DNA of 64,000 nucleotides from NCBI GenBank assembly GCA_038087875.1, contig CM075993.1, positions 10,976,001 through 11,040,000 on the forward strand, in the 5' to 3' direction. The notes under the pieces were generated by a model. It saw nothing but the letters and a program-made list of their open reading frames with translations. It ran no database searches and was not told the origin of the DNA. The position numbers were made by a program, and so were the translations under genes. This DNA is from Malacoraja senta. Taxonomy: Eukaryota. Shown piece by piece: positions 6,181 through 63,611 of this stretch. How positions within the stretch are numbered: position 1 is the first letter of the stretch; each line of letters begins with the position of its first letter.

Positions 6181-6799
6181 GCTATTATATTGACCCCTTT
6201 GATCTGTGTTTCCACACCTTACCCTTCCATACCTCCATGTCTCCCTTTCCCCTGACTCTCAGTCTGAAGAAGGGTCTCGACCCGAAATGTCACCCATTCC
6301 ATCTCCCCAGAGATGCTGCCTGTCCCGCTGAGTTACTCCAGCATTTTGCGTCTATCTTATTACGTTGACTCGGGATAATGAATGTGATCTGTGCAACATA
6401 ACTATTGTATATTGGGACCTCGTTACCTGCCGCCTACAGATTGTCCTTCTCTGGAAGTCAGCGCCAATGTTTACTTCCAAATAATCGAAGTCGAGGGAAG
6501 CGGATCTTTGAATCCTCCGTTTTGGGATTATAAAGTTATAGGGCAAACTCCTCTGCACCGACCATCTACACTAGTCCCATTTGCCCGCGTTTGGCCCACA
6601 TCCTTCTAAACCTTCCAATCCATGTACCTGTTCAGGTGTCTATTAAATGTTGAAGCTAGACGCACTGTGCCGGAGTAACTCAACGGGCCAGGCAGCATCT
6701 CTGGAGAATAAAGATGGGTGACGTTTCAGGTAAGTACCCTTCTTCAGACTATTTTAAAATTTTATTATAGTATTGGCTTCACTGCCACATCTGGCAGCT

Positions 6800-10128: not shown

Positions 10129-10328
10129 NNNNNNNNNNNNNNNNNNNNNNNNNNNNNNNNNNNNNNNNNNNNNNNNNNNNNNNNNNNNNNNNNNNNNNNN
10201 NNNNNNNNNNNNNNNNNNNNNNNNNNNNNNNNNNNNNNNNNNNNNNNNNNNNNNNNNNNNNNNNNNNNNNNNNNNNNNNNNNNNNNNNNNNNNNNNNNNN
10301 NNNNNNNNNNNNNNNNNNNNNNNNNNNN
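10129..10328. other. Assembly gap (200 N) between a CT-rich tract and a (TG)n tract
   Basis: Run of N directly visible. Confidence 0.99.
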
Positions 10329-16196: not shown

Positions 16197-17147
16197 ATGA
16201 TGCCTCGCCCGGGCAGGAACACGTATAGCGACCAGAAGCCACCTTACTCCTACATCTCGTTGACCGCCATGGCTATCCAAAGCTCTCCGGAAAAGATGCT
16301 GCCTCTCAGCGAGATCTACAAGTTTATCATGGACCGCTTCCCTTACTACCGGGAGAACACACAGAGGTGGCAGAACTCGCTCAGACACAACCTCTCTTTC
16401 AATGATTGCTTCATCAAAATCCCTCGGAGACCCGACCAGCCGGGCAAGGGCAGTTTTTGGGCTCTTCATCCCAACTGCGGAGACATGTTTGAGAACGGCA
16501 GCTTCCTGAGACGCCGCAAACGTTTCAAGGTGTTGAAGGCAGACCATTTGGCGGTGAATAAGCAATCGGACGCCACGCACTATCTCCAACAACAAGCCAA
16601 GCTTCGGCTAAGCGCACTGGCCGTGTCGGGCACACACCTGCCCCAGATACCCACCTACAACATGGGAGTCTCGCAAAGCTCAAGTTTCAAGCACCCCTTC
16701 GCCATCGAGAACATTATCGCCAGAGAGTACAAAAACGTGATGTCCAGCGGGCTGGCTTTCTCGGCCGTTCAGCCCATGCACACCGGCTATCCCATGCACT
16801 CAGTGGGAACGGCGTGGCCTCACATGTACAGTACCACGGTTATGGACACGGCGCCGCAGCTCTCCGTGCCCACTGGCGATTACAGCGCCTACGGGGTCCC
16901 ACTCAAGCCGCTGTGCCACGGCGGGCAGACACTACCGGCCATCCCCGTGCCCATCAAACCGTCGCCGGCCAGCGTGTCCGTCCTGCCGGCGTTACCCGCG
17001 CCCATCTCGGCCATCCTGTCCAACAATGTTTCCACGTTGAGTCCCACCTCCCCGCTGATCGGCAGCGGGCATCGAAGCCCAAGCCCCAGTCCCGGCGACA
17101 CGTTGAGCAGCGCCGGCGCAGCTTTGCAGTCGGTAGCTGTGCACTGA
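16197..17147 (+). CDS. FOXB1: Forkhead box protein B1 (316 aa from ATG 16197; conserved start probably ATG 16200)
   Basis: [71 protein letters not shown] forkhead domain with FOXB1-type residues; EH1 motif [10 protein letters not shown]-terminus ...LQSVAVH; single open exon. Confidence 0.97.
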
Positions 17148-23104: not shown

Positions 23105-24749
23105 CAGTTGGGCAAAGACCTATCGTTTATTTATTTGCCTCTGTACTCCACAATTTTAGATTTGTAATAGAAAAAAAAAATCACATGTGGTTAAAGTGCA
23201 CATTGTCCGATTTTAATAAAGGCCATTTTTATACATTTTGGTTTCACCATGTAGAAATTACAGCAGTGTTTATACATGCCCCCCCCCCCCCCCCCATTTC
23301 AGGGCACCATAATGTTTGGAACACAGCAATGTCATGTAAATGAAAGTAGTCGTGTTTAGTATTTTGTTGCATATCCTTTGCATGCAATGACTGCTTGAAG
23401 TCTGTGATTCATGGACATCACCAGTTGCTGGGTGTCTTCTCTGGTGATGCTCTGCCAGGCCTGTATTGCAGCCATCTTTAGCTTATGCTTGGTTTGGGGG
23501 CCAGTCCCCTTCAGTTTTCTCTTCAGCATATAAAAGGCATGATCAAGTGGGTTCAGATCAGGTGATTGACTTGGCCACTCACGAATTGACCATTATTTAG
23601 CTTTAAAAAACTCCTTTGTTGCTTTAGCAGTATGTTTGGGATCATTGTCTTGCTGTAGAATGAACCGCCGTCCAATGAGTTTTGACGCATTTGTTTGAAC
23701 TTGAGCAGATAGGATGTGTCTATACACTTCAGAATTCATTATGCTACTACCATCAGCAGTTGTATCCTCAATGAAGATAAGTGAGCCAGTGCCTTCAGCA
23801 GCCATACATGCCCAGGCCATAACACTCCCACGACCGTGTTTCACAGATGAGGTGGTATGCTTTGGATCTTGGGCAGTTCCTTCTCTCCTCCATACTTTGC
23901 TCTTGCCATCACTCTGATATAAGTTAATCTTTGTCTCATCTGTCCACAAGACCTTTTTCCAGAACTGTGGTTGCTCTTTTAAGTACTTCTTGGCAAACTG
24001 TAACCTGGCCATCCATTTGTGTGGCTAACCAGTGGTTTGCATCTTGCAGTGTAGCCTCTGTATTTCTGTTCATGAAGTCTTCTGTGGACAGTGGTCATTG
24101 ACAAATCCACATCTTACTCCTGAAGAGTGTTTCTGATCTGTCGGACAGCTGTTTGGGGATTTTTCTTTATTATAGAGAGAATTCTTCTGTCATCAGCTGT
24201 GGAGGTCTTCCTTGGCCTGCCAGTCCCTTTGCGATTAGTACGCTCATAAGTGCTCTCTTTCTTCTTAATGACGTTCCAAACAGTTGATTTTGGTAAGCCT
24301 AAGGTTTGGCTGATGTCTCCAACAGTTTTATTCTTGTTTCTCACTCATAATGGCTTCTTTGACTTTCATCAGCACAACTTTGGTCCTCGTGTTGATAAAC
24401 AGCAATATAAGTTTCCAAAGGTGATGGAAAGACTGGAGGAAAGACTAGATGCTGAGAACTCTTTTATACCTGCATTAAGGAGGCAATTAAACACACCTGA
24501 GCAATTACAAACACCTGTGTAGCCATGTGTCCCAAACATTATGGTGCCTGAAATGGGGGGACTATGTATAAACACAACTGTAATTTCTACATGGTGAAAC
24601 CAAAATGTATAAAAATTGCCTTGATTAAAATCTGACAATGTGCACTTTAACCACATGTGATTTTTTTCTATTACAAATCTCAAATTGTGGAGTACAGAGG
24701 CAAATAAATAAATGATGGGTCTTTGTCCCAAACATTATGGCGGGCACTG
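23105..24749 (-). mobile_element. Tc1/mariner DNA transposon (IR/DR type), inactive
   Basis: About 220-bp TIRs (23105-23324, 24527-24749) with internal direct repeats CCATAATGTTTGGRAC; right end CACTG followed by TA; transposase remnants on the minus strand. Confidence 0.93.
23356..24390 (-). pseudogene. Tc1 transposase pseudogene (DD34E family)
   Basis: HTH/GRPR (KGTGRPRKTS), WTDETKINL, QQDNDPKH, WPSQSPDLNPLD, KGYATKY*; probable start reads ACG, in-frame TAA at about 23593, frameshifts. Confidence 0.9.
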
Positions 24750-27915: not shown

Positions 27916-28529
27916 CTGTGCACCCATCTGCCAAATGTTGCGGCGCCGGTGGTGGCCTTACAAACGTCACAGCGGGTACGTTGTCACTGGGTCTTCCTGC
28001 AGATCATCAGCAGTTGTTCATTCACACCACAGGCAACGGAGCCCCCAGGATATCCCTGTTCCTTCTTTATGGTCCATTCAAGCCCCCTCTCTCTCCAACG
28101 ACCGGATCCCAGTCTGAAGAAGGGTCTCGGCCCGAAAAGTCACCCATTCCTTCTCTCCAGAGATGCTGCCTGTCCCGCTGAGTTACTCCAGCTTTTTGTG
28201 TCTATCTTTGATTTAAACCAGCATCTGCAGTTCCTTCCTGCACATCCCCCTCTGGATTAGAACATAGAACATAAATCTGTGCACCACACGAACAGGCCTT
28301 TCGGCCCACAATGTTCGTCCCGAACACGATGCCAAGTTAAACTACTTTGTAAACCAGCACCTACATTAAACTAGTCTCCTCTGCCTGTTGATGCCGATTA
28401 GCCTCAACTAGACCCGATGCCCGCCGGTTCTATATTCTCGCCCATAAGAAGTTTATCCCGGACTATATTGGATTTATTAGCAAGTATCTTATGACTTAGA
28501 AACAGTTAGACAGGTATCTTTACTCGTTT

Positions 28530-28920
28530 GATCGTGTACCAAATCATGGAAGGAATAAATCGGGTAAACGCACATAGTCTCCTGCCCAGAGTAGGGGATT
28601 CGACAACCAGTTGACTTAGGTTTAAGGAGGGGAGGTGGGGAGGGGGTGGGGGGGGGGGGGGCGGAGATTCAATAGGAACCTGAGGGGAAACTTTTCCATT
28701 CAAAGGGTGGTGGGTGTATGGAACGAACTGCCAGAGGAGGTAGTTGAGGCAGCGACTAGTGCAAATTTAAACAGGTAGGGAGGTATGGCCCAAACGCAGG
28801 TAGGTGGGACCAAAGATCATAGAGCGCCCATAATCTTTGGGTGGGACTAGTGTAGATGGGGTATGTTGGGCTGTGTCGGCACGTTGGGCCGAAGGGCCTG
28901 TTTCCATGCTGTATGACTCT
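28530..28920 (+). mobile_element. CR1 LINE 3' end containing a 29-bp TIR remnant
   Basis: GGGTGGTGGGTGTATGGAACGAACTGCCAGAGGAGG and tail GGGCCGAAGGGCCTGTTTCCATGCTGTATGACTC. Confidence 0.8.
28811..28839. mobile_element. 29-bp DNA-transposon remnant (putative excision footprint) with 8-bp TSD GGTGGGAC
   Basis: GGTGGGAC-CAAAGATCATAGAGCGCCCATAATCTTTG-GGTGGGAC; termini match the element at 57003-57398. Confidence 0.75.
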
Positions 28921-29324
28921 GAATTAAATGCACAAAAAGAAAATCTGGAGTGTGTAGTTCTTTACACCGCTGGTTTAAACTGAAGATAGACACAAAAAGC
29001 TGGAGTAACTCAGCGGGCCAGGCAGCATCTCTGGAGAGAAGGAATGGGTGACGTTTCGGGTCCAGACCCTTCTTCAGGAGTTGAAGTTGTCCCACGCTTT
29101 AGCGTCACCTGTTAAATTGGCCAACAAGTCAGAGGTGGCCCAAACGCAAAACGGGAGAGTAATGGAGAAAGGATAAACTGGGAGAATGGCCAGAGCTAAT
29201 AAAAACAATAGCTAGTTCATAGGATCTTTCACAAAGCTAACACCCCCCGACCACCGAGAGCGTGACACACTACTGGCGATGTTGGAAACGTAAACCATTC
29301 GGCAGGTCGGGCAGCATCTACAGT

Positions 29325-34437: not shown

Positions 34438-35414
34438 GTATCTCGCCTCAGGACCTATTGACATCGGGGCCCTCTGACTCCAGAACCTCTGACCTACGGG
34501 AAGTCATTGATCTCAGGACCCCTTGACCTCGGGTCCCATTCTCACCAGCACCCTCCTATCCTGCATTTGACTCTCGAGCAGCGCCGGGATGTAAAACCCG
34601 GAACCCCAGCCCAGAACGACGGGTGAATGGGGTTAGGAGGGAGAGATAGATCAGCCACGATTGAATGGCGGAGTAGACTTGATGGGCCGAATGGCCGAAC
34701 TCTGTTCCTATCACTTGTGATAACGACAATCCCCCCTCTCCACAGTGGTCCCGGCCCCACAACCAGTGTCCCGCCTCGGCTGAGAGACGCGGGCAAGCGT
34801 GGCATCGATTCCAAATTCCACCAGGCCGATAGATGCCGGCGGTGCCATCGTTGTCCAACGCGCAGCGGGGACTCGGGAAGATCCGCTGCCTACAGTGGCT
34901 CTGGGAAGCACCCCAACGGGCACCGCGTATGTTGGAAGGGACTTTATTCCCTGGAGCGCATGAGGATGAGGGGTGGTTACACAATCATGAAAGGAATAGA
35001 TCGGGTAGATCACTTGTCCAGAGTAGGTGAAGGAATGAAGTCGCAGCCTCCTCAACCTCTCCCTATAACTCACACCCTCCAGTCGTGGCGACATCTTCGT
35101 GAATCATCTCCGCACATGTTCCAGTTTGGCAGCATCTTTCCTATAACGCGGTGACCACAACTGGACACAGTGCTCTTAATGTGGCCTCGCCAACGTCTTC
35201 GGACATAGAACAGCACAGCACGGGTCAGGCCGTTCGACCCACAATATCCAACCACCAGAGGAATTAGGTTTAAGGTGAGGAGGGGGATTTAATACGAATC
35301 TGATGGGTAACTTTAACAGCAAGGGTGGTGGGTGTATGGAACGAGCTGCCGGAGGAGGTAGTTGAGGCAGGGACTATCGCAACGTTTAAGAAGCATTTAG
35401 ATACGTTCATGTTT

Positions 35415-35590
35415 AAGAAGGAACTGCAGATGCTGGAAAAATCGAAGGTAGACACAAATGCTGGAGAAACTCAGCGGGTGAGGCAGCGTCTATGGAGCGA
35501 AGGAGTGTCTCGACCCGAAACGTCACCTATTCCTTCGCTCCATAGATGCTGTCTCACCCGCTGAGTTTCTCCGGCATTTTTGTCTACCTT
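35415..35590. mobile_element. Penelope-like fold-back pair (arms of about 60 bp)
   Basis: AAGGTAGACACAAATGCTGGAGAAACTCAGCGGGTGAGG... versus ...CTCACCCGCTGAGTTTCTCCGGCATTTTTGTCTACCTT. Confidence 0.75.
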
Positions 35591-36110
35591 AGAGAGACAC
35601 GTGGATAGGATAGGTTTAGAGGGATGTGGGCTAAACGCAGCCAAATGGGACTAGTGTAGCTGGGGCATTTTGGGCGGCGTGGGCAAGTTAGGCCGAAGGG
35701 CCTGTTTTCGCGCTGTGTGAATCTGTACGTGGGAAGGAACCTCAGATGGTGGTTTGCACACAAATTGCTGGAGTAACTGAGTGGGTCAGGCAGCATCTCT
35801 GGAGAGACGGAATAGGTGACCATTCTTCAGACTGAGAAGGGTTGCGACCCGAAACATGACCTATTGCTTTTCTCCAGAGATGCTGCCTGACCCGCTGAGT
35901 TACTCCAGCGTTGTGTGTCTGAACAACTCTGTGTTCTAAACGGAAAATACTCAGCTGCGTGTTTAACCTCTGCGGTCGGAGATGGACATAAAATGCTGGA
36001 GAATCTCAGCGGGACTGGCAGCATCTCTGGAGAGAAGGGATGGGTGGTATTTCGGGTCGAGACCCTTCTTCAGACTGGTCACTTCGATATTCCGTTTAAA
36101 CCAGCGTTTA

Positions 36111-39680: not shown

Positions 39681-40364
39681 TATGTGGGGAAACCCGGGGG
39701 GGGGGGGGGGCAGGGGGCACGTCCCCCCCATGTTTTGTAATCCGGATTTTGAAATTCGGTGAAAAAATCTATTAAAAATCTCCCCTTTCTGCGAGACAGT
39801 GGGGGTAGGACTGATGATCGAGGGTGCCGATTGGACGAGAGAGACATCGGTCAGCAGGCAACGGGGGGGGGGGGGCGGGACATGATTCAGCGCGATCATT
39901 GGTGGAGGGAGGTGTGGATCAGAGGCGGAAGTAAGGGGGTGGGACTGAGGATAGAGCGCGGTGATTGGAGGAGGGAGACGTCCTGGTGGAGCAAAGATCA
40001 TAGAGTGGAGCTTGAATCGACCCGTTTGCGGGGCCTTTCATCGCCCGGCGCGGCGCAGTTGAAATGCGGCCGCGGGATCTTCCATCCCACGCCTTCAAAA
40101 TTGCAGCGTCGAGGCGATTGAGGCTCCCGAAGTTGAAGCCCCGCCGGTCGATGAAAGGCCCCACCAACGGGCCCATTGAAGCTCCACGATTCGGGTCGGA
40201 CGAAGCTGCTGTTGCTGGAGTTCAGAGTCGGTCACCAACCAGGTCAGCTCCCAATGTTACCGTCCACAGGGCCCACGGCTGAAGCCTTGCGTGTGTGCGC
40301 ATGCACGTGCGACCACCAAGAAATTGTGCCTCCCCCATGTTTTGATAGCGATTTCCGCCCCTGC

Positions 40365-49202: not shown

Positions 49203-50062
49203 TTAACCAGGATGTTGCCAGGCCTAGAGGGTCTGAGCTATAGGGAGAGGTTGAGTTGGCTGGGACTCTATTCTTTGGAGTGCAGGAGGATGAGGGGTGA
49301 TCTTATAGAGTTGTGTATATATCCCCTATATCAAACATTTTCTAACCCATTCTACCTCCAGGTCCCTCAGGTCGGCCGACTTGGGGCTATTGACTATCCC
49401 ACGGTCTAGGTTTAAGCTCAGGGGTGACCACGCTTTCGCGGTTGCAGCACCTAGAGTGTGGAACAGCATCCCGCTCCTCATCAGAACTGCCCCCTCCATC
49501 GACTCCTTTAAGTCGAGGCTCAAAACCTATTTCTACCCCCTAGCGGTTTTGAGGCCCTCTGAGGGGGCGCTGTAAACAGTTTATGTATGTATTGTTAGGT
49601 CTGTGTACCATTGTATGTAGCACATTAGTACCTTCACTGATGTGAAGCACTTTGGTCAACGTGAGTGGTTTTTAAATGTGCTATACAAATAAAATTGATT
49701 GATTGATTGTGTAAGATCATGATAGGAATAGATCGGGGAGATGCACAGAGTCTCTTGCCCAGAGTAGGGGAATCGAGGACAAGAGGACATAGGTTTATGG
49801 TGAAGGGAAAAAGATTTAATAGGAATCTGAGGGGTAACTTTTTCACACAAAGGGTGGTGGGTGTATGGAACGAGCTGCCAGATGATTTAGTTGAGGCTGG
49901 GACTACCCCAACATTTATAGTACGAAGCAGTTAGACATGTACATGGATAGGACAGGTTTGGAGGGATATGGACCAAATGCTGGCAGGTGGGACTAGTGTA
50001 GCTGGGACATATTGGACAAGTAGGGCCTGTTTCCACACTGTGTCATTCTATGACTATGACTC
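49203..50062 (+). mobile_element. CR1 3' end interrupted by an L2 fragment
   Basis: TRMLPGLEGLSYRERL...MRGDLIEL, resuming KIMIGIDR...FFTQRVVGVWNELP. Confidence 0.85.
49320..49707 (+). mobile_element. L2-clade LINE 3' fragment
   Basis: LLTIPRSRFKLRGDHAFAVAAPRVWNSIP...FKSRLKTYFY; L2-type end and (GATT)n; flanked by TTGTGTA duplication. Confidence 0.85.
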
Positions 50063-56982: not shown

Positions 56983-57002
56983 GGCTATAGAATGATTTGC
57001 AG

Positions 57003-57398
57003 CAAAGATCCTATAGCGGTGCAAGATAGACCACTCCTGCTAAATGCAATGGGCTGACGTGTAGTACGCAACGGATCGGAACGTGGGCCTTTTCTTCATC
57101 CATTTCCATAACCCGACCCGACCCGACTCGCAGTGTAATCAACGTTGCGGGGGAACAGTTTGTGTTAATAAATTATAATTCTGAAAATGAGGAGAAGATT
57201 TTTACCAAATAACTTTTATTTTTACGAGGAAGTTTCCGTAATCGGCTTCCGTCTCCGCACTAGTATCCTATGGGATCTTTGGTGCGGAGACGGAAGCTGG
57301 TTACGGAAATGGGGCCTTAAATTACCCATGAATCTGCCCATGACCCGTACTACGTCTTTTTCGTCGAGTGGACTATCTTGCTCGCTATGGGATCTTTG
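57003..57398. mobile_element. Non-autonomous DNA transposon (P-like or hAT) with ~33-bp TIRs and 8-bp TSD ATTTGCAG
   Basis: ATTTGCAG|CAAAGATCCTATAGCGGTGCAAGATAGACCACTC...GAGTGGACTATCTTGCTCGCTATGGGATCTTTG|ATTTGCAG. Confidence 0.88.
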
Positions 57399-58072
57399 AT
57401 TTGCAGGGCCCTGCGGAAAGAGCAGGGATGGATGGGATTGCGGAACTGTGCATGGGGCATTGATTTGATGGGCTGAATGGCTTCATCCTGGGTTACAACA
57501 GCTTCATCATCCTCTTTCATCCATCCAGTTTCAAATTAACTGCAGCAGAGAAGTGTGGAGATGATATTGCTGAGCAGAGCTTTATATAAATCCTTCTGCT
57601 TTTGCCCAACACCGAGAGATAATACGTTTCAAATTGCAAAAGACACACAAAATACTAACTCGCCCAAGTTCAATACACACTTACGGATTATTTGGACTAT
57701 AAGACCCATGTAATTATACTCGGCCGGGCTGGATAAATTTGATCATTTAGGATTTGTACTGAGAGCTCCCCTCAATATCATTCAGGGATAAAGGGAATGA
57801 TTTGACCAGCCTGTCTAAGCTAACAGGCGTTTAAAGGTAAATGTAGCAACACAGTGTTCAAGGTATTGATCGGCAGCAGGGAAGGTTTTGTTTTATATAT
57901 CAAAAATAATTTATTGAATTACGATACAAAATAATATTTACAAATGAAAACCGTGGTCCCACCACCATGATACAAAATGACTAAATTATCTAAGACACTA
58001 AATTTTCAAATACCTATAATACCATCCTGTTGTTCCACTGAATGGCATAAGAAATGGCTAACACTGCCATAC

Positions 58073-63094: not shown

Positions 63095-63184
63095 ACAACC
63101 ACATGTGTTTTCAAATACATTTTGGACTGGAGCATGGATAGGAAAAGATTACAGGGATATGGGCCAAACGCAGACAGATGGGAC

Positions 63185-63206
63185 CAAAGATGGTAGTAGG
63201 TCTTTG
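63185..63206. mobile_element. 22-bp DNA-transposon remnant (putative footprint) in a CR1 tail
   Basis: GATGGGAC-CAAAGATGGTAGTAGGTCTTTG-GGTGGGAC. Confidence 0.65.
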
Positions 63207-63611
63207 GGTGGGACTAGTGTAGATGGGGCAACTTGGATGGCATGGGCAAGTTGGGCCGAATGGCCATGTTGTATGACTCTATAACTCTATAACTATTCTG
63301 TCATTTGATCATCGATTCCTCCCTACTTTTACCACATCTATTGTCTTCTGCAGAGAGGACAAGTATTTGTTCAAAGCCTCAGCCGGATCTATATCTTGTA
63401 TTTTAATTTCTCCCTCATTACATCTTGTCTCCCCATAGTTACTTTTCCAATCTCTTCATTATTACACAATTTTCGACAATATAATTCTCTTAGCCTTTGA
63501 TAAATTTTGCTCATTCACGGTCAGAATTATCTTTACCTTTGCATAAGAATGAACGAATGATACTTCATTGTCACAAGTGACAAGTCACAGTGATATTCTT
63601 TGCCAACCAAG

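What the first reader, a model, noticed from the sequence alone, without database searches (positions are those of the whole stretch)
28803..28847. 29-bp TIR-to-TIR remnant between perfect 8-bp TSDs: a candidate P-element-type excision footprint
Seen: GGTGGGAC + CAAAGATCATAGAGCGCCCATAATCTTTG + GGTGGGAC. The first 16 nt match the left end of the 57003 element at 14/16, and the right part is a degenerate inverted copy overlapping at CG. Empty-site CR1 tails here (49986 GGTGGGACTAGTGTAG; also about 35645 and 6570) carry the target once. Known: Drosophila P transposase makes a 17-nt staggered cut, so donor sites keep about 16 bp of each TIR between both TSDs, whereas hAT excision hairpins the flanks and leaves no TIR. 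Inference: a P/THAP9-superfamily transposon was actively excising in this chondrichthyan germline.
Basis: partly seen in the sequence, partly recalled or inferred. Interest (0 to 1): 0.72.

Follow-up and report, generated by a model that had tools for sequence, protein, structure and literature searches.

The report
Old transposon exit scars in skate
This 29-letter hairpin is most likely the scar left when a cut-and-paste jumping gene left its site in a skate genome; its shape matches scars of the fruit-fly P element, and a second scar sits at the same letter of another copy of the same retrotransposon.

Summary
The structure is real: 8-bp GGTGGGAC repeats flank a 29-bp insert made of two transposon ends, inside the 3' end of a LINE in a skate genome (foxb1 95% identical to Amblyraja). 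The insert fits 14 nt + CG + 14 nt less one base. That is the geometry of the commonest fly P-element donor junction in two repair-mutant tables (14+AT+14; 5 of 23 and 7 of 25). Remnants outnumber the one intact 396-bp element 3:1, and none keeps more than 17 nt per end. Contigs from four runs show further inserts at this LINE site (about 19-30 bp). So a P-type staggered-cut footprint is the best reading (about 0.65). The transposase was not found: no genome is held, the window has none, and CAAAG ends with 8-bp duplications also fit hAT. The scars are decayed, so the activity is ancient. It is unresolved whether the repeated site is a target hotspot or an element carried in a LINE source copy.

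The parts
28803..28810 (+). Left target-site duplication GGTGGGAC; overlaps the last codons (R-W-D) of the LINE ORF2
28811..28839 (.). 29-bp remnant of two transposon ends: left arm 14-17 nt, CG at nt 15-16, right arm 12-16 nt with two transitions and one lost base against the left arm; reads Q-R-S-stop in the ORF2 frame
28840..28847 (+). Right target-site duplication, followed by the original ORF2 stop codon (28848-28850)
28534..28921 (+).
   Evidence: (very deep paralogous cover)
63177..63214 (+). Second remnant at the same LINE nucleotide: GATGGGAC + 22-bp two-ended insert (63185-63206, about 11-12 nt per end) + GGTGGGAC; reads Q-R-W-stop
39992..40005 (+). One-ended remnant: 13-14 nt of a left arm, identical to the first 14 nt of the 28811 insert, between two GTGGAG repeats; no partner end in the window
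56995..57406 (.). Intact non-coding element (57003-57398, 396 bp) with ~34-bp imperfect TIRs and a perfect 8-bp duplication ATTTGCAG; the related family member that shows what the ends belong to
49986..49993 (+). Empty target in a paralogous LINE tail (GGTGGGAC once)
35644..35651 (+). Empty site, variant AATGGGAC
6574..6581 (-). Empty site, variant AATGGGAC

Best explanation
A DNA transposon with CAAAGATC ends inserted into the 3' end of a LINE copy and duplicated 8 bp (shown). It was later cut out by a transposase that cuts one strand about 16-17 nt inside each end, as P transposase does (inferred). The donor site kept two identical single-stranded tails. These were joined through the self-complementary CG at nt 15-16, giving 14+2+14 = 30 bp, since decayed to 29 (junction shown, pathway inferred). 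The 22-bp insert at 63185 and the one-ended piece at 39992 are other repair outcomes of the same kind of break. The TIR of the 57003 element holds a 6-bp palindrome at nt 9-14 that predicts a 22-bp product. The transposase is probably of the P superfamily (inferred from the scar only). The events are old. The LINE's stop-codon site was hit or emptied more than once.
For: True insertion with 8-bp duplication against 3 empty copies. Best-fitting junctions total 29-30 bp (17+12, 16+14, 16+13, 15+15, 14+16, tied); in run X1 two contigs carry the extra base that makes 30. Fly P donor ends keep 17-nt overhangs, and 14+AT+14 = 30 bp is the largest single class in 2 of 2 tables seen (5 of 23; 7 of 25; PMC2895639 section 9). 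3 of 3 remnants in the window keep at most 17 nt per end, against 1 intact element; a random internal deletion of a 396-bp element does this with probability 0.004. Contigs spanning the site in three other organisms give about 19, 22, 22, 26, 29-30 and 30 bp (inferred by matching depths). The target 14-mer scores 9 of 14 against the fly P motif ATRGTCCGGACWAT, reached by 0.6% of window positions. hAT and MULE excision leaves no element ends. P-like elements with 8-bp duplications were mobile in zebrafish.
Against: No transposase is linked to these ends: no genome held; 0 of 211 window ORFs hit a P or hAT transposase family; 0 matches in viral, prokaryote and metagenome collections; no useful protein hit from the element's frames. 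CAAAG plus 8-bp duplication also fits hAT (YARNG). If a deletion is confined to the 34-bp TIRs, both ends fall at or below 17 nt with probability 0.25, so the length argument against hairpin deletion is modest. The intact element's own target scores only 6 of 14 on the P motif (23% of positions). The 22-bp insert fits the predicted palindrome only with about 2 substitutions and 2 gaps. Zebrafish THAP9 left larger flank deletions in fly cells, not tidy two-ended scars. The fly tables are from spn-A mus308 mutants; the spn-A-only table was not seen.
Confidence: 0.65

Rival explanations
1. No staggered cut: an element of any 8-bp-duplication superfamily (hAT first) lost its interior by hairpin-stimulated deletion between short repeats inside the TIRs, or by aborted gap repair, leaving both tips.
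For: The intact element folds strongly (z = -11.0) and has ~34-bp TIRs with palindromic words that act as direct repeats across the element. Ends fit YARNG. Aborted repair synthesis followed by end joining is the common outcome in wild-type flies. A three-copy ACCCG run at about 57113-57127 resembles hAT subterminal repeats (recalled, not tested).
Against: No remnant in the window keeps 18-34 nt or any interior, and remnants outnumber the intact element 3:1. The 28811 junction uses only a 2-bp overlap exactly where fly P junctions fall.
Confidence: 0.22
2. One event, copied: a LINE source copy already carried the element or its scar just before the ORF2 stop codon, stayed active because ORF2 gains only three residues, and spread it. 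The 29- and 22-bp inserts then descend from one insertion, and their differences are decay or separate later excisions. This explains the shared site and is partly compatible with the best explanation.
For: 2 of 5 tails in the window carry an insert at the same nucleotide; if 0.1% of tails did, one more among 4 has probability 0.004. Both inserts read Q-R-x-stop in frame. Both have the GGTGGGAC variant on the right.
Against: The two tails are no closer to each other (79 of 98 aligned bases, 81%) than to empty tails (78-86%). Insert depth is only about 4-10 times single-copy depth in three runs and about 1e-4 of tail depth, so no large subfamily with this scar was seen, although sensitivity is low. 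Inserts differ in length and in arm variant.
Confidence: 0.11
3. Chance hairpin, local duplication or assembly error.
For: Run X22, which matches the window's flank with 0 differences over 208 bases, has no contig over 28824-28828, so this locus itself was not confirmed by independent data.
Against: 0 of 300 null windows; arms match an intact element in the window; similar inserts in contigs of four runs from four studies; only 88% of X22 was read and a filter drops records.
Confidence: 0.02

Closest known systems
Drosophila P-element donor-site junctions (17-nt staggered cleavage; PMC7776569 passages, PMC2895639 section 9)
   Same: 8-bp duplication kept on both sides; 17 nt or less of each end; joined through a 2-bp palindrome at nt 15-16 to give 30 bp; shorter and lopsided products occur; target resembles the P motif.
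   Different: Natural, old, in a vertebrate genome; TIR sequence unrelated beyond CA; no transposase shown; recurs at one LINE nucleotide.
Zebrafish Pdre2 / THAP9 P-like transposons (PMC10983969 passages and section 6)
   Same: Vertebrate TIR elements with 8-bp duplications and CA...TG ends, with non-coding derivatives.
   Different: Pdre2 TIR is 13 bp (CATACC...), here about 34 bp (CAAAGATC...); its excision in cell assays gave larger flank deletions; no natural scars described in the passages read.
hAT MITEs (PMC3014272, PMC5499845 passages)
   Same: 8-bp duplication, YARNG ends, short non-coding elements.
   Different: hAT excision hairpins the flank and leaves no element ends; here both duplications and both tips survive.
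P-derived MITEs of Anopheles and BuT5 of Drosophila (PMC1562414, PMC3698922 passages)
   Same: Short non-coding elements with about 30-bp ends and 8-bp duplications, moved by a P transposase.
   Different: There the autonomous partner is known; here it is not.

Membership tests
P superfamily | Autonomous element encodes a P/THAP9-type transposase between these ends | not testable with these tools
   No genome; none in 211 window ORFs; no loci in collections
P superfamily | 7-8-bp target-site duplication | tested here: met
   8 bp at 28803/28840, 63177/63207 (1 mismatch), 56995/57399
P superfamily | TIRs with CA...TG ends, 13-31 bp in known members | tested here: met
   CA...TG ends, about 34-bp imperfect TIR; not diagnostic
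P superfamily | Donor site keeps up to 17 nt of each end | tested here: met
   3 of 3 window remnants; 19-30 bp in contigs, with a method ceiling
P superfamily | Genome-wide scar lengths stop near 34 bp | not testable with these tools
   Needs an assembly; cannot show longer inserts
P superfamily | Target resembles ATRGTCCGGACWAT | tested here: inconclusive
   9 of 14 at the LINE site, 6 of 14 at the intact element; two distinct sites only
hAT superfamily | 8-bp duplication and YARNG ends | tested here: met
   CAAAG fits YARNG
hAT superfamily | Excision leaves no element ends (flank hairpins) | tested here: not met
   Both tips and both duplications retained; applies only if the remnants are excision products
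hAT superfamily | hAT transposase between these ends | not testable with these tools
   As for P
MITE (57003 element) | Short, non-coding, TIRs, duplication, multicopy | tested here: met
   396 bp, no Pfam hit, strong fold; one further copy seen as a spurious 51-aa ORF at 83%; copy number not measured

The most novel reading that the evidence does not exclude
Skates hosted an undescribed P-superfamily family that repeatedly used one nucleotide of the genome's abundant LINE, just before the ORF2 stop codon, where insertion adds only a few residues. It either targeted that site or rode in a LINE source copy and then excised copy by copy. The scars would form a genome-wide natural record that the fly's 17-nt staggered cut is conserved in vertebrate P elements, readable from peaks at 22 and 30 bp.
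Probability: 0.3. Interest if true: 0.65.

Novelty: new member of a known kind. Interest (0 to 1): 0.42.

Why it matters
Two-ended scars of 17 nt or less per end are the signature of one cleavage chemistry, so they can assign an orphan MITE family to a superfamily without a transposase. I found no description of mobile P elements or of such scars in cartilaginous fish in the open-access library (searches; paper look-ups); Repbase, Dfam and subscription papers were not searchable. The depth of the cut is established for the fly enzyme; in the passages read, the zebrafish assays did not show it. Scars at one site in many LINE copies make both the cut depth and the target preference countable in any public skate assembly. 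The single 45-bp feature itself has no likely function.

Tried and rejected
Whole-genome scan: no genome held. Element ends in viral, prokaryote and metagenome collections: 0 matches. LINE tail motif in the same collections: 0, 0 and 1 match; the one locus L001 has no LINE around it and was dropped as chance. LINE ORF2 C-terminus against proteins, to look for Q-R extensions: 4 hits, one reaches W-D and stops there, too few to count. Frames of the 396-bp element against proteins, to find a fused transposase: none; 2 hits, one a spurious ORF of another copy, one unrelated. Pfam on 208 of 442 stop-to-stop frames of 60 aa or more (those of 75 aa or more and not low-complexity) plus 3 long ORFs: only RT, forkhead and Tc1-type hits. 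Orthology or polymorphism of the locus: not shown; no listed contig bridges it in any run, X22 has a hole at 28824-28828, and the known 63185 paralog was not seen in X22, so sensitivity is low (41 letter rows, 7 gap rows and 862 joint rows were hidden). Contigs that stop at about nt 16-17 of the arm cannot be read as intact elements or as scars. Share of tails with an insert: bounded only between about 1e-4 and 0.05-0.2. Reading 39992 as the left end of a longer element: no partner end in the window. Exact look-up of foxb1: not in the collection. A paper search for nearly precise excision returned nothing relevant; that comparison is recalled.

Full report
1. Observation. The sequence is as described. 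Five copies of this LINE tail lie in the window. Three are empty and two carry an insert plus one extra 8-mer at the same nucleotide: 29 bp at 28811 and 22 bp at 63185. Both inserts begin CAAAGAT and end TCTTTG. The window holds two CAAAGA...TCTTTG pairs of 12-44 bp, and both have the flanking repeat; 0 of 300 Markov windows did (pattern chosen after the fact).

2. Host and neighbours. foxb1 places the window among skates: 95% to Amblyraja radiata, 89% to Pristis, 82% to Narcine. The target covers the last ORF2 codons R-W-D before the stop, and both inserts continue Q-R-x-stop. The name CR1 is recalled; this part of the LINE has no Pfam hit. The ends belong to a family shown intact at 57003-57398: 396 bp, TIRs of about 34 bp, perfect 8-bp duplication, no coding capacity. 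A third remnant at 39992 has only a left arm, identical to the first 14 nt of the 28811 insert, between two GTGGAG repeats. The two positions at which 28811 differs from 57003 are shared with 39992, so they likely mark a sister family and not decay (inference).

3. The junction. Using its own left arm as model, the 28811 insert is fitted equally by 17+12, 16+14, 16+13, 15+15 and 14+16 nt, that is 29-30 bp in all. The simplest reading is 14+CG+14 with two transitions and one lost base; two contigs of run X1 carry that extra base. P transposase cuts one strand 17 nt inside each end (PMC7776569, passages). In PMC2895639 (passages and section 9) the junction 14+AT+14 is the largest single class, 5 of 23 and 7 of 25, in spn-A mus308 flies; products of 20, 24, 28, 32-34 bp and longer ones with insertions also occur. 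The 57003 TIR has self-complementary words at nt 15-16 (30-bp product) and nt 9-14 (22-bp product). The 63185 insert has 22 bp but fits this only loosely. hAT and MULE enzymes hairpin the flank instead (PMC5499845, passages).

4. Other genomes. I laid 4 of the 24 runs on 28411-29010 at 80% likeness (contigs only). X22 matches the flank with 0 differences over 208 bases; the others are different organisms. Depth in the insert bin was 222, 167, 212 and 497, against 23, 21 and 53 for single-copy bins of X22, X1 and X2 and millions on the tail. Contigs entering the insert often read the 57003 arm (4, 2, 0 and 5 contigs at 28819 in X22, X1, X2, X23). Matching depths across tables gives spanning inserts of about 22, 19, 26 and possibly 29 bp in X23, 22 bp in X2 and 30, 30 and possibly 29 bp in X1; none spans in X22. 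These figures are inferred, rows were hidden, and longer inserts cannot be seen this way. The X2 insert shares the two changes of 63185, in an organism whose flank differs at 10 of 111 bases, so that scar is probably older than the split. No listed contig bridges the locus itself.

5. Why one site? Two of five tails, and several contigs per run, carry ends at one nucleotide. Hotspot reading: the target scores 9 of 14 on the fly P motif (PMC2577343, passages), a score reached by 0.6% of window positions, and the two tails are not closer to each other than to empty ones. Carriage reading: an insert here leaves ORF2 almost intact, so a source LINE could have spread it. The depth data show no large subfamily with this scar but are insensitive (the 63185 paralog was not seen in X22). 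With a very large number of tails some recurrence is expected by chance, but not two in one window unless the share is near 1% or more. Unresolved.

6. Membership. It works like a P footprint; that it is one is not shown. No genome is held. None of 211 frames scanned hit a P or hAT transposase. Collections and protein searches gave no link. Ends and duplication fit hAT as well (PMC3014272, passages). Mobile P-like elements are known in zebrafish, with different ends and untidy excision in cell assays (PMC10983969, passages and section 6). P-derived MITEs are known in insects (PMC1562414, PMC3698922, passages).

7. Literature and earlier notes. Ten searches (listings and abstract starts) showed no paper on P elements or such scars in cartilaginous fish. 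Passages of three genome papers (PMC10115646, PMC12361510, 10.1101/2025.06.08.657570) do not mention them; 12 supplements of PMC12361510 gave no hit for six terms and one file was unreadable; PMC10824691 has no shark or skate term; PMC13343379 (passages) gives CR1-group elements as 22-34% of elasmobranch genomes. Repeat libraries and supplements not seen may already class this family. Earlier notes of this scan hold nothing on this genome or sequence; one describes similar P-like scars in another genome and one a hairpin-deletion case; neither was checked here.

8. Verdict. Real, old, two-ended excision scar of P type (0.65); hairpin deletion or aborted repair of a hAT-like element 0.22; single copied event 0.11; artefact 0.02. 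New member of a known kind. Interest 0.42, higher if the shared LINE site proves to be a hotspot or a carried element.

Noticed in passing
window 57233-57309: Inside the 396-bp element, 28-bp inverted arms (93% complementary) enclose 21 bp whose last 14 are identical to the element's right end and whose first 7 resemble a left end. This looks like two copies of one donor end fused at the TIR palindrome, or a nested end.
   Followed up: partly
window 16200-17147: Single-exon foxb1 gene; 95% identical to Amblyraja radiata, 89% to Pristis over residues 110-315.
   Followed up: yes
window 23182-24659: Decayed Tc1-type element of about 1.46 kb with inverted ends and DDE_3 and HTH remnants.
   Followed up: partly
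window 40005-40187: 183-bp GC-rich foldback with 50-bp arms, abutting the one-ended remnant at 39992 and preceded by three ~67-bp imperfect repeats at 39801-39982.
   Followed up: no
window 28533: Apparently orthologous contigs in X1 and X23 both stop matching exactly where the LINE piece begins and carry 40 further letters, so the 5' junction of the host LINE may differ between species.
   Followed up: no
window 35360-35600: The empty LINE tail at 35644 is interrupted by an unrelated insert of roughly 200-250 bp within its ORF2 end.
   Followed up: no
window 10129-10328: Assembly gap of 200 N between simple repeats.
   Followed up: no
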